Assembly: GCF_002854065.1 (NCBI RefSeq)
Contig: NZ_CP024147.1
Reading direction: 5' to 3' (one strand)
Length of the DNA stretch: 64,000 bases
DNA from: Escherichia coli
Lineage (GTDB): Bacteria > Pseudomonadota > Gammaproteobacteria > Enterobacterales > Enterobacteriaceae
Part shown: positions 53,658 to 56,603 of the stretch, in pieces
How the letters are laid out: each line of letters begins with the position of its first letter
Position numbering within the stretch: the stretch's first letter is position 1
Position numbers and translations under genes: made by a program
Notes under the pieces: generated by a model
Seen by the model: the letters and a program-made list of their open reading frames with translations, nothing else
Database searches by the model: none
What the model was told of the DNA's origin: nothing

Positions 53658-53823
53658 TGTCTCTCGCCTGGGGTGGAAACGGTTGGCCGCAATCGCGACA
53701 CATCATCAGTATTTTGCCGCAGTATAACATGAAGGCGTCTTTGTTGTTATGCAACGGTTGGAGCAGCGTTCACCTGACGCTATACTGCTTCTCTTTCTTA
53801 TTGCTCAAACTGTCGACATTACT

Positions 53824-54615
53824 ATGCCCGTTTTTGCTCTGCTCGCGCTTGTCGCCTACTCCGTCAGTCTTGCGCTGATTGTTCCCGGTCTGCTGCAAAA
53901 AAACGGCGGCTGGCGGCGCATGGCTATTATTTCTGCGGTCATTGCGCTGGTCTGCCACGCAATCGCTCTGGAAGCCCGCATCCTGCCCGACGGTGATAGC
54001 GGACAAAACCTCAGCCTGCTGAACGTTGGTTCATTGGTCAGTTTGATGATCTGTACGGTAATGACCATTGTGGCTTCTCGCAATCGTGGCTGGTTGCTGC
54101 TACCCATTGTCTATGCCTTTGCGCTTATCAACCTGGCGCTGGCGACCTTCATGCCCAATGAATACATCACCCATCTGGAAGCTACGCCTGGGATGCTGGT
54201 GCACATTGGCTTATCGCTCTTTTCCTATGCCACGCTAATTATCGCCGCCCTGTACGCGCTGCAACTGGCGTGGATTGATTACCAACTGAAGAACAAGAAG
54301 CTGGCGTTTAACCAGGAAATGCCGCCATTGATGAGTATCGAGCGTAAAATGTTCCACATCACGCAGATTGGCGTGGTGCTGCTAACGCTCACGCTTTGCA
54401 CTGGCCTGTTCTACATGCACAACTTATTTAGCATGGAAAATATCGACAAGGCTGTGCTCTCTATCGTGGCGTGGTTTGTCTATATTGTGCTGCTGTGGGG
54501 ACATTATCATGAAGGATGGCGTGGACGCCGCGTCGTCTGGTTTAACGTTGCGGGTGCAGTCATTCTGACACTGGCCTACTTCGGCAGCCGAATTGTCCAG
54601 CAGTTAATCAGCTAA
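53824..54615 (+). CDS. ypjD: Inner-membrane protein, cytochrome c assembly (CcsA/ResC-like) family
   Basis: ORF 53749..54615 trimmed to MPVFALLALVAYSVSLALIVPGLLQK..., 263 aa; multi-TM. Confidence 0.85.
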   Translation: MPVFALLALVAYSVSLALIVPGLLQKNGGWRRMAIISAVIALVCHAIALEARILPDGDSGQNLSLLNVGSLVSLMICTVMTIVASRNRGWLLLPIVYAFALINLALATFMPNEYITHLEATPGMLVHIGLSLFSYATLIIAALYALQLAWIDYQLKNKKLAFNQEMPPLMSIERKMFHITQIGVVLLTLTLCTGLFYMHNLFSMENIDKAVLSIVAWFVYIVLLWGHYHEGWRGRRVVWFNVAGAVILTLAYFGSRIVQQLIS

Positions 54616-54635
54616 ACCCAGAAAAGGAGTTTCCC

Positions 54636-55922
54636 CTGGAACACATTTCTACTACTACGTTGATCATTATTCTGATCATCATGGTGGTCATTTCAGCCTA
54701 TTTTTCCGGGTCCGAAACCGGAATGATGACCCTGAACCGCTATCGTCTGCGACATATGGCGAAACAGGGTAATCGCTCGGCCAAACGCGTCGAAAAATTG
54801 CTGCGTAAGCCAGACCGCCTGATAAGCCTGGTGTTAATCGGCAATAACCTGGTCAATATTCTTGCCTCCGCGCTCGGCACTATTGTTGGGATGCGTTTGT
54901 ACGGCGATGCGGGCGTGGCAATTGCGACTGGTGTGCTGACCTTTGTGGTGCTGGTTTTTGCCGAGGTGTTGCCGAAAACTATCGCTGCGCTATACCCGGA
55001 AAAAGTCGCTTATCCGAGTAGTATTCTGTTAGCACCGCTGCAAATTTTGATGATGCCGCTGGTCTGGTTGCTGAACGCTATCACCCGCATGTTAATGCGC
55101 ATGATGGGCATCAAAACCGATATCGTGGTCAGCGGCTCTTTGAGCAAAGAAGAGTTGCGCACTATCGTGCATGAATCGCGCTCACAAATTTCCCGTCGCA
55201 ATCAGGATATGCTGCTGTCGGTGCTCGATCTGGAAAAAATGACCGTTGATGACATCATGGTGCCGCGCAGTGAAATTATCGGTATTGATATCAACGATGA
55301 CTGGAAATCGATTCTGCGCCAACTCTCCCACTCACCTCACGGGCGCATCGTGCTCTACCGTGATTCGCTGGACGACGCCATCAGTATGCTGCGAGTACGT
55401 GAAGCCTGGCGGTTGATGTCGGAGAAAAAAGAGTTCACCAAAGAAACCATGCTGCGCGCCGCGGACGAGATCTATTTTGTGCCGGAAGGTACGCCGCTCA
55501 GCACGCAGTTGGTAAAGTTTCAGCGCAACAAAAAGAAAGTCGGCCTGGTCGTCAACGAGTATGGAGACATTCAGGGGCTGGTGACGGTTGAAGATATTCT
55601 GGAAGAGATTGTCGGCGATTTCACTACATCGATGTCGCCAACACTTGCCGAAGAGGTCACGCCGCAAAACGACGGTTCGGTGATTATCGATGGCACCGCC
55701 AACGTGCGGGAAATCAACAAAGCCTTTAACTGGCATCTACCGGAAGATGATGCCCGCACGGTTAATGGCGTCATTCTTGAGGCACTGGAAGAGATCCCTG
55801 TCGCAGGCACCCGCGTGCGTATTGGCGAGTACGATATAGATATTCTCGACGTACAGGACAATATGATTAAGCAGGTAAAAGTTTTTCCTGTGAAACCGCT
55901 GCGCGAGAGTGTGGCGGAGTAA
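54636..55922 (+). CDS. yfjD: CNNM/CorB-family membrane protein (DUF21 + CBS pair + CorC_HlyC)
   Basis: ORF track gives 54660..55922 (TTG start). I extend 8 codons to 54636 (MEHISTTTLIIILII...) because AAGGAG at 54624-54629 is optimally spaced for that position and it gives the 428-aa product I recall; the codon there is CTG, so the start is uncertain. Confidence 0.8.
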   Translation: MEHISTTTLIIILIIMVVISAYFSGSETGMMTLNRYRLRHMAKQGNRSAKRVEKLLRKPDRLISLVLIGNNLVNILASALGTIVGMRLYGDAGVAIATGVLTFVVLVFAEVLPKTIAALYPEKVAYPSSILLAPLQILMMPLVWLLNAITRMLMRMMGIKTDIVVSGSLSKEELRTIVHESRSQISRRNQDMLLSVLDLEKMTVDDIMVPRSEIIGIDINDDWKSILRQLSHSPHGRIVLYRDSLDDAISMLRVREAWRLMSEKKEFTKETMLRAADEIYFVPEGTPLSTQLVKFQRNKKKVGLVVNEYGDIQGLVTVEDILEEIVGDFTTSMSPTLAEEVTPQNDGSVIIDGTANVREINKAFNWHLPEDDARTVNGVILEALEEIPVAGTRVRIGEYDIDILDVQDNMIKQVKVFPVKPLRESVAE

Positions 55923-55976
55923 CGAAAACGGCCCTGCATTCGCATGCAGGGCCGTGAATTATTACGAAAACAGAAA

Positions 55977-56603
<627 letters not shown>

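What the first reader, a model, noticed from the sequence alone, without database searches (positions are those of the whole stretch)
54616..54690. yfjD has no canonical start codon at the position best served by its Shine-Dalgarno
A strong SD (AAGGAG, 54624-54629) is followed after 6 nt by CTG (54636), in frame with the CNNM-family ORF (MEHISTTTLIIILII...). The first canonical in-frame starts are TTG at 54660 (30 nt from the SD) and ATG at 54681 (no SD). Either translation initiates at a rare CTG codon, or this strain carries a start-codon substitution relative to a GTG/ATG ancestor, which would reduce expression of this putative Mg/Co efflux-type protein.
Basis: seen in the sequence. Interest (0 to 1): 0.25.

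Follow-up and report, generated by a model that had tools for sequence, protein, structure and literature searches.

The report
Known CTG start codon of yfjD/corB
The E. coli membrane-transporter gene yfjD (corB family) really does begin at a rare CTG start codon behind a strong ribosome-binding site, but this is the normal, already annotated and experimentally reported state of the gene in essentially all E. coli, not a mutation of this strain.

Summary
AAGGAG (54624-54629) lies 6 nt before CTG (54636), in frame with the CNNM/CorB-type ORF. The next in-frame canonical start codons are TTG 54660 (codon 9) and ATG 54681 (codon 16).

It is not strain-specific. RefSeq starts the yfjD CDS at this CTG in all seven E. 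coli records I opened, including a K-12 strain. At least 5,412 of 5,426 complete E. coli genomes carry the CTG, and none showed ATG, GTG or TTG in the same context.

Across 80 Enterobacteriaceae sequences the homologous codon is CTG (37), TTG (30) or GTG (13), never ATG. Its second and third bases are invariant, and three-base periodicity of variation begins at codon 2. Codon 9 is CTN in 71 of 80.

New here: CTG goes with a stronger Shine-Dalgarno. AAGGAG occurs in 32 of 37 CTG sequences and 0 of 43 TTG/GTG sequences. On a gene tree, 5 of 7 start-codon switches fall on the same branch as a Shine-Dalgarno switch, which suggests compensation.

Verdict: a real feature, already known, of low interest. 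The co-variation is a modest addition.

The parts
53824..54615 (+). ypjD (cytochrome c assembly family membrane protein), the upstream gene of the same transcription unit
   Evidence: The RefSeq CDS in the identical locus L001 maps to these coordinates. Pfam Cytochrom_C_asm matches at E=3.7e-48. The gene sits directly upstream of yfjD in all 79 species loci and in several orthologous loci at 43-50% identity.
54613..54615 (+). ypjD stop codon TAA, 20 nt before the yfjD start; no terminator in between
   Evidence: The stop-to-start distance is 12-30 nt in 73 of 79 species.
54624..54629 (+). Shine-Dalgarno AAGGAG
   Evidence: The predicted duplex with the 16S 3' end is -8.2 kcal/mol. The AAGGA core is the only conserved upstream block across 80 sequences.
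54630..54635 (+). 6-nt spacer TTTCCC, non-coding
   Evidence: An extra C in this spacer (7 nt in all) occurs in O55:H7 CB9615 and strain 106, and the CDS is still annotated from the CTG. That shows the frame is not constrained upstream of the CTG.
54636..54638 (+). CTG initiation codon of yfjD
   Evidence: It is the RefSeq CDS start. EcoGene 3.0 reports mutagenesis and fusions confirming it. The homologous codon is CTG 37, TTG 30, GTG 13 and ATG 0, with the TG invariant.
54636..55922 (+). yfjD / corB-type CNNM-family transporter CDS, 428 aa plus stop
54660..54662 (+). TTG, codon 9: the formerly annotated start, in fact an internal Leu codon
   Evidence: It is CTN in 71 of 80 sequences. No Shine-Dalgarno lies upstream. 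EcoGene reports that mutating it had no effect on expression.
54681..54683 (+). ATG, codon 16: an internal Met inside transmembrane helix 1, used as the start by some automatic gene callers
   Evidence: No Shine-Dalgarno lies upstream. The CNNM profile begins at residue 11. Automatic calls beginning at M16 (411-413 aa) are seen. The 15 codons upstream are conserved as coding sequence.
55928..55955 (.). GC-rich hairpin between the convergent yfjD and grpE ends (terminator-like)
   Evidence: This is a consensus scan only.

Best explanation
yfjD, the E. coli CorB/CNNM-family membrane transporter gene, starts translation at the near-cognate codon CUG at 54636. Initiator tRNA decodes it as fMet, giving MEHISTTTLIIILII... 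The 30S subunit is placed by the strong Shine-Dalgarno AAGGAG 6 nt upstream. Ribosomes finishing ypjD 20 nt upstream may add to this, because the two genes form one operon with no terminator between them. CUG is an intrinsically weak start codon and the start is never ATG in Enterobacteriaceae, so the gene appears tuned for a low, set initiation rate. Lineages with CTG carry a stronger Shine-Dalgarno (AAGGAG) than lineages with TTG or GTG (AAGGAA/C/T), which points to compensation that holds output roughly constant. Shown here: the position of the start, its fixation in E. coli, and the co-variation. Taken from the literature: experimental confirmation of the CTG. Inferred: low expression, compensation, and any contribution from coupling.
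For: (1) RefSeq annotates the CDS from this CTG in all seven E. coli records opened, including K-12 DH1.
[quoted passage not shown] It calls yfjD the second E. coli K-12 CTG start after hda.
(3) A 44-nt probe whose every 28-nt seed word must include the C of CTG hits 5,412 of 5,426 complete E. coli genomes. The same probe with ATG, GTG or TTG finds nothing.
(4) In 80 Enterobacteriaceae sequences the codon is CTG 37, TTG 30, GTG 13 and ATG 0, with bases 2 and 3 invariant. Ordinary Leu codons 9 and 13 vary at the third position. Strict three-base periodicity begins at codon 2, and upstream only AAGGA is conserved.
(5) Indels just upstream are tolerated: an extra C in the spacer, and a 9-nt duplication at the ypjD stop.
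(6) The CNNM domain starts at residue 11, and the archaeal CorB structure 7m1u has the same N-terminal overhang, with query residue 10 aligned to chain residue 11.
(7) The mean Shine-Dalgarno duplex energy is -8.07 kcal/mol for CTG, against -6.10 for GTG and -5.91 for TTG. AAGGAG occurs in 32 of 37 CTG sequences and 0 of 43 others. Fitch parsimony on a neighbour-joining tree gives 7 start-class changes and 7 Shine-Dalgarno-class changes, 5 on the same branch out of 158.
(8) Reporter data put CUG at 1-2% of AUG, against 10-100% for GUG and UUG. A genome-wide study found weaker start codons tend to be compensated by stronger Shine-Dalgarno sequences (PMC5622118).
Against: The experimental confirmation is cited in EcoGene 3.0 only as unpublished results. 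I could not find ribosome-profiling or N-terminal proteomic data for this gene: it is absent from the TRAINSPOTTER supplements, and the Ribo-RET and Onc112 supplements are not held. The co-variation test is crude. It uses a single-gene neighbour-joining tree with midpoint root, a binary Shine-Dalgarno class, and a branch permutation that ignores branch lengths. Five CTG sequences (three Atlantibacter, ENT03, UBA3516) lack AAGGAG. Expression levels were not measured.
Confidence: 0.9

Rival explanations
1. Translation starts at the downstream TTG (54660, codon 9), the older K-12 annotation, and the CTG with the eight codons after it is 5'-UTR.
For: TTG is a canonical start codon and is the first one in frame. 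Older annotations used it: the MazF-regulon table's '17 nt' for yfjD fits only this TTG.
Against: No Shine-Dalgarno lies within range, because AAGGAG is 30 nt upstream. Codon 9 is CTN in 71 of 80 relatives. Codons 2-8 (EHISTTT) are conserved at the protein level with synonymous third-position variation. EcoGene reports that mutating this TTG had no effect.
Confidence: 0.03
2. Translation starts at ATG 54681 (codon 16), as some automatic gene callers predict, giving a 413-aa protein.
For: It is the first in-frame ATG. Gene calls beginning at M16 exist in public collections, at 411-413 aa. M16 is invariant in the 80 sequences.
Against: No Shine-Dalgarno lies upstream. Starting here would delete the first five positions of the CNNM domain and about half of transmembrane helix 1. 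The 15 upstream codons evolve as coding sequence. M16 is not conserved in distant orthologs, which have L or C at the equivalent position.
Confidence: 0.02
3. The CTG is a recent start-codon mutation of this strain or lineage that cripples expression.
For: Relatives in other genera have GTG or TTG at the site.
Against: The CTG is fixed in E. coli: at least 5,412 of 5,426 genomes, with no variant found. It is shared with E. albertii, Salmonella, Citrobacter amalonaticus, Enterobacter, Kosakonia and Raoultella. The protein is highly conserved, so there is no sign of decay.
Confidence: 0.01
4. Same start site, different route: the CUG is used mainly by ribosomes that have just terminated at the ypjD stop 20 nt upstream (termination-reinitiation coupling). 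De novo 30S binding contributes little.
For: The ypjD stop lies 12-30 nt from the start in 73 of 79 species. The ypjD-yfjD pairing persists in orthologs at 43-50% identity. No terminator lies in between.
Against: Six species have 104-159 nt between the ypjD stop and the start, yet keep CTG with AAGGAG. The tight link between CTG and Shine-Dalgarno strength argues that the Shine-Dalgarno interaction matters. There is no direct test.
Confidence: 0.2

Closest known systems
E. coli K-12 yfjD (UniProt P37908; RefSeq WP_010723175.1), a CTG-initiated gene described in EcoGene 3.0
   Same: It is the same gene. The start region is identical, with no differences in 54580-54720 against K-12 DH1, and the CDS start is annotated at the same place. 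The CTG is reported as experimentally confirmed.
   Different: Only allelic differences elsewhere: K-12-type strains are about 97.7% identical over 54400-55000.
hda of E. coli K-12, the first chromosomal E. coli gene shown to start at CTG
   Same: It is a near-cognate CUG start on a chromosomal gene, cited together with yfjD in EcoGene 3.0.
   Different: It is an unrelated protein and locus. It is not in this window and was not examined here.
infC (IF3) AUU start codon with IF3-dependent autoregulation (from my own knowledge)
   Same: It is a non-canonical start codon that sets a low, controllable initiation rate.
   Different: For infC the regulatory logic is established. For yfjD there is no evidence of regulation through the start codon.
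Salmonella CorB / archaeal CorB (PDB 7m1t, 7m1u) / CNNM Mg2+ transporter family
   Same: The domain architecture is the same: CNNM transmembrane domain, CBS pair and CorC_HlyC. The match to 7m1u has E=5.7e-44. S. enterica arizonae has the same CTG and AAGGAG.
   Different: The transport function of E. coli YfjD itself was not tested here.
Start-codon / Shine-Dalgarno compensation (Belinky, Rogozin and Koonin 2017, PMC5622118)
   Same: Weaker start codons tend to be accompanied by stronger Shine-Dalgarno sequences. The same direction is seen at this single locus.
   Different: That abstract addresses switches among AUG, GUG and UUG genome-wide. Here the pattern involves CTG at one orthologous site across genera.

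Membership tests
CNNM / CorB (HlyC/CorC family) transporters | N-terminal CNNM (DUF21) transmembrane domain | tested here: met
   PF01595 matches at E=1.3e-53, residues 11-184. The sequence aligns to the transmembrane domains of 7m1u and 7cff.
CNNM / CorB (HlyC/CorC family) transporters | Cytosolic CBS-pair domain | tested here: met
   PF00571 matches at 278-326. Residues 201-330 match the K. pneumoniae CBS-domain structure 3hf7 at E=2.1e-74.
CNNM / CorB (HlyC/CorC family) transporters | C-terminal CorC_HlyC domain | tested here: met
   PF03471 matches at E=2.3e-19, residues 344-418.
CNNM / CorB (HlyC/CorC family) transporters | Mg2+/Co2+ transport activity | not testable with these tools
   Inferred by homology only.
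Genuine near-cognate (CUG) bacterial start codons | No canonical in-frame start between the upstream stop and the conserved N-terminal coding sequence | tested here: met
   The in-frame stop is at 54543, and no ATG, GTG or TTG occurs before codon 9. Codons 2-8 are conserved as coding sequence.
Genuine near-cognate (CUG) bacterial start codons | Shine-Dalgarno at functional spacing | tested here: met
   AAGGAG lies 6 nt upstream, with a duplex energy of -8.2 kcal/mol.
Genuine near-cognate (CUG) bacterial start codons | The homologous codon is a canonical start in relatives (NTG alternation with TG fixed) | tested here: met
   CTG 37, TTG 30 and GTG 13, with positions 2 and 3 invariant in 80 sequences.
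Genuine near-cognate (CUG) bacterial start codons | Sequence upstream of the codon evolves as non-coding | tested here: met
   Entropy is high except at AAGGA. A 1-nt and a 9-nt indel occur within E. coli. The intergenic length varies from 12 to 159 nt.
Genuine near-cognate (CUG) bacterial start codons | Direct experimental proof of initiation (mutagenesis, toeprint, initiation profiling, N-terminal peptide) | not testable with these tools
   Mutagenesis and fusions are reported in EcoGene 3.0 as unpublished results. No profiling or N-terminomic record could be retrieved.

The most novel reading that the evidence does not exclude
The CUG start may be a regulatory device rather than just a weak start. 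Discrimination against near-cognate start codons by IF3 and the 30S subunit relaxes as free Mg2+ rises (general knowledge from in vitro translation). A CUG-initiated Mg2+-efflux-type CorB protein could therefore be made in proportion to cytosolic Mg2+, forming a direct translational feedback loop. The absence of ATG in 80 Enterobacteriaceae sequences, the non-ATG calls in 6 of 8 distant orthologs, and the co-tuning of the Shine-Dalgarno fit selection on initiation behaviour. They do not test this idea.
Probability: 0.05. Interest if true: 0.65.

Novelty: already known. Interest (0 to 1): 0.2.

Why it matters
There are three practical points. First, automatic gene callers that disallow CTG truncate this protein to M16, giving calls of 411-413 aa. 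The 50%-identity cluster representative is itself such a truncated call. Second, work based on the older TTG start misplaces features. The MazF 'cleavage 17 nt upstream of the start' for yfjD actually lies in codons 3-4 of the real ORF. Third, the locus gives a clean natural series of CTG, TTG and GTG at one orthologous site, with matching changes in Shine-Dalgarno strength. That series could be used to measure how start-codon and Shine-Dalgarno strength trade off. None of this changes current understanding of the gene.

Tried and rejected
- **Local mRNA structure:** The fold of 54596-54675 is -12.2 kcal/mol, z = -0.64 against shuffles, so it is not distinctive.
- **Pattern statistics:** AAGGAG-N6-CTG is not significant by chance alone.
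- **Ribosome-profiling and N-terminomic evidence:** The Ribo-RET preprint has no held supplements, the published versions are not held, and the TRAINSPOTTER supplements contain no yfjD or P37908.
- **ATT at codon 4 (54645) as an alternative near-cognate start:** Rejected. It is 15 nt from the Shine-Dalgarno, and its third base varies (C/T/A) like an ordinary Ile codon.
- **A ypjD-yfjD fusion by readthrough or frameshift:** Rejected. The genes are in different frames, the yfjD frame has an in-frame stop at 54543, and the intergenic lengths are not multiples of three.
- **Intermediate outgroups (Yersinia, Serratia, Erwinia):** Could not be obtained. The single genome-contig scan kept only the best 80 loci, all Enterobacteriaceae, and the protein search lists only the top 120 hits. 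Eight metagenomic orthologs at 43-50% identity were used instead. Their start codons are gene-caller calls, not verified.

Full report
**1. Observation**

AAGGAG lies at 54624-54629, the spacer TTTCCC follows, and CTG is at 54636. The frame then reads GAA CAC ATT TCT ACT ACT ACG, then TTG (54660, codon 9), six further Ile/Leu codons (IIILII), then ATG (54681, codon 16).

The nearest upstream in-frame stop is TAA at 54543, and no canonical start lies between it and codon 9. The upstream gene ypjD ends with TAA at 54613-54615, 20 nt before the CTG.

The ORF encodes a CNNM/CorB-type transporter. Pfam gives CNNM at residues 11-184, CBS at 278-326 and CorC_HlyC at 344-418. The closest solved full-length relative is archaeal CorB 7m1u (E=5.7e-44).

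The motif AAGGAG-N6-CTG alone is not statistically remarkable. There is 1 match against 0.32 expected, and 29 of 100 shuffles had at least one.

**2. Identity and annotation**

The window is E. coli. The segment 54400-55000 matches 5,425 of 5,426 complete genomes. In the 100%-identical record the RefSeq CDS 'yfjD: HlyC/CorC family transporter' maps to 54636-55922, so it begins at the CTG.

The same CDS start is annotated in six further records:
- K-12 DH1
- Nissle
- O55:H7 CB9615
- a divergent primate isolate (ChlosBP-23-1)
- a bloodstream isolate (GN02100)
- cattle strain 106

The start region is invariant among the six sequences aligned (the window, DH1, Nissle, ChlosBP, O55:H7 and GN02100), apart from changes upstream of the CTG. 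Those changes are an A/C polymorphism, a 9-nt duplication at the ypjD stop, and an extra C in the spacer. Indels that are not multiples of three immediately upstream show that the reading frame is unconstrained there.

**3. Population check in E. coli**

I used a 44-nt probe (54620-54663) in which the C of CTG is base 17. Every 28-nt megablast seed word must therefore contain that base.

- The probe hits 5,412 of 5,426 genomes. Of these, 5,076 are exact and 336 fall in the 95-99% band. The one record opened from that band carries the extra-C spacer variant.
- The same probe with ATG, GTG or TTG in place of CTG finds nothing.

The CTG is therefore fixed in the species. The reading that this strain carries a substitution is refuted.

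**4. Published experiment**

EcoGene 3.0 (PMC3531124, section 'CTG start codon verification') makes three statements:
[quoted passage not shown] These results are credited to D. Dague and K.E. Rudd as unpublished.

I found no independent profiling or N-terminomic record. yfjD is absent from the TRAINSPOTTER supplements. That study's annotated-start set contained 50 GTG and 10 TTG but no CTG. The Ribo-RET and Onc112 supplements are not held.

**5. Comparative evidence**

One scan of species-representative genomes gave 80 loci, 79 of them usable, all Enterobacteriaceae at 86-99% protein identity.

| Feature, in 80 sequences including the window | Result |
|---|---|
| Codon homologous to the CTG | CTG 37, TTG 30, GTG 13, ATG 0 |
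| Bases 2 and 3 of that codon | invariant |
| Third base of Leu codon 9 | G57 / C11 / A8 / T4 |
| Third base of Leu codon 13 | G64 / T13 / A3 |
| Pattern of variation from codon 2 onward | almost entirely at third positions; EHISTTT nearly invariant as protein |
| Conserved sequence upstream | only AAGGA, at -12 to -8 |
| First base of codon 9 | C in 71 of 80, so the E. coli TTG there is lineage-specific |

This is the signature of a start codon at 54636. It rules out codon 9 or codon 16 as the conserved start.

A start at M16 would also remove the first positions of the CNNM domain. The CTG start gives the same 10-residue N-terminal overhang as archaeal CorB.

**6. Mechanism**

In reporter measurements CUG initiates at about 1-2% of AUG, against 10-100% for GUG and UUG (preprint 10.1101/063800). 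The gene is therefore built for low initiation unless other elements compensate, and they appear to.

| Start codon | Mean predicted Shine-Dalgarno : anti-Shine-Dalgarno duplex (kcal/mol) | Sequences with AAGGAG (or AGGAGG) |
|---|---|---|
| CTG | -8.07 | 32 of 37 |
| GTG | -6.10 | 0 of 13 |
| TTG | -5.91 | 0 of 30 |

On a neighbour-joining tree of the CDS, Fitch parsimony gives 7 changes of start class (CTG versus TTG/GTG) and 7 changes of Shine-Dalgarno class. Five of these fall on the same branch out of 158. Examples are the Citrobacter freundii complex, K. pneumoniae, the K. oxytoca/Pseudocitrobacter group, and the Enterobacter-Kosakonia clade.

This agrees with the genome-wide tendency for weaker start codons to be compensated by stronger Shine-Dalgarno sequences (PMC5622118). 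The test is crude: it uses a gene tree with midpoint root and binary classes. Five CTG sequences lack AAGGAG. I treat compensation as likely but not proven.

**7. Operon context**

ypjD is always immediately upstream. The stop-to-start distance is 12-30 nt in 73 of 79 species, and no terminator-like site lies between the genes. Co-transcription is very likely, and termination-reinitiation may contribute.

Six species have 104-159 nt between the genes and still keep CTG with AAGGAG. Tight coupling is therefore not required.

The local RNA fold around the start is not unusual (z = -0.64).

**8. Deeper history**

Basal Enterobacteriaceae branches on the tree (Shimwellia, Pluralibacter, Cedecea, Franconibacter) have TTG. 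Parsimony puts TTG/GTG with a weak Shine-Dalgarno at the root, so CTG looks derived, at least twice.

Eight metagenomic orthologs at 43-50% identity have called starts TTG x4, GTG x2 and ATG x2. Five of them are visibly still next to a Cytochrom_C_asm gene. These starts are gene-caller calls, not verified. A non-ATG start therefore seems an old habit of this gene pair.

**9. Verdict**

It is the normal, annotated and reportedly verified state of yfjD in E. coli, so it counts as already known and of low interest. The only increment from this work is the locus-specific co-variation between start codon and Shine-Dalgarno strength, together with the fixation statistics.

The most novel reading not excluded is that CUG makes CorB synthesis responsive to Mg2+ or IF3-dependent initiation fidelity. 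This is pure speculation, and I give it about 5%.

Noticed in passing
window 54630-54635; L005 and L096: A sublineage that includes O55:H7 CB9615 and cattle strain 106 has one extra C in the SD-CTG spacer (TTTCCCC, 7 nt). 336 complete genomes fall in the 95-99% band of the 44-nt probe. Only one record from that band was opened, so the others are not confirmed to carry this variant.
   Followed up: partly
window 54641-54645 (ACACA in codons 2-4 of yfjD): The MazF-regulon paper (PMC5001579, Table 1) lists yfjD with a cleaved ACA 17 nt from the start. That distance fits only the old TTG start (54660 minus 17 is 54643). The reported '5'-UTR' cleavage site therefore lies inside the CTG-initiated ORF and would remove the Shine-Dalgarno and the true start.
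   Followed up: partly
window 53749-53824 (ypjD 5' end): The longest ypjD ORF starts at ATG 53749 (288 aa). RefSeq starts ypjD at 53824 (263 aa, MPVFALLAL...). I did not evaluate which is correct.
   Followed up: no
whole window: AAGGAG is strongly under-represented, with 9 occurrences on both strands against 22.9 +/- 4.9 in dinucleotide-preserving shuffles. This is consistent with avoidance of Shine-Dalgarno-like hexamers inside genes.
   Followed up: no
window 55928-55955: A 12-bp GC-rich hairpin (ACGGCCCTGCAT...ATGCAGGGCCGT) lies between the convergent yfjD and grpE stops. It is probably a bidirectional terminator.
   Followed up: no
L004 (E. coli ChlosBP-23-1), aligned to window ~54613-54621: There is a 9-nt tandem duplication (TAACCCCAG twice) at the ypjD stop codon. 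It lengthens the ypjD-yfjD intergenic region to 29 nt without affecting the annotated CTG start.
   Followed up: partly
P0121 (protein from the 50%-identity representative library): The best-scoring hit in the 50%-identity representative library, apparently the representative of the E. coli YfjD cluster, is a 411-aa call. It starts at M16, and its C-terminal ~80 residues match the ORF antisense to grpE (window 56203-56424). This points to a deletion or chimeric assembly plus a truncated start call.
   Followed up: no
L012, L022, L027, L028, L031, L034 (upstream of the yfjD start): Six species (a Citrobacter amalonaticus, Raoultella spp., Enterobacter sp. 10-1, Intestinirhabdus) carry a 104-159 nt insertion between ypjD and yfjD. 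All six have CTG with AAGGAG. I did not examine what the inserted sequence is.
   Followed up: no
window 54400-55000: The window's allele of this locus is uncommon. Only 57 of 5,425 E. coli records are at least 99% identical over these 601 nt, and most are 95-99%. Identical copies occur in O169:H41 strains, bovine isolates and a strain labelled O157:H7 TR01.
   Followed up: no
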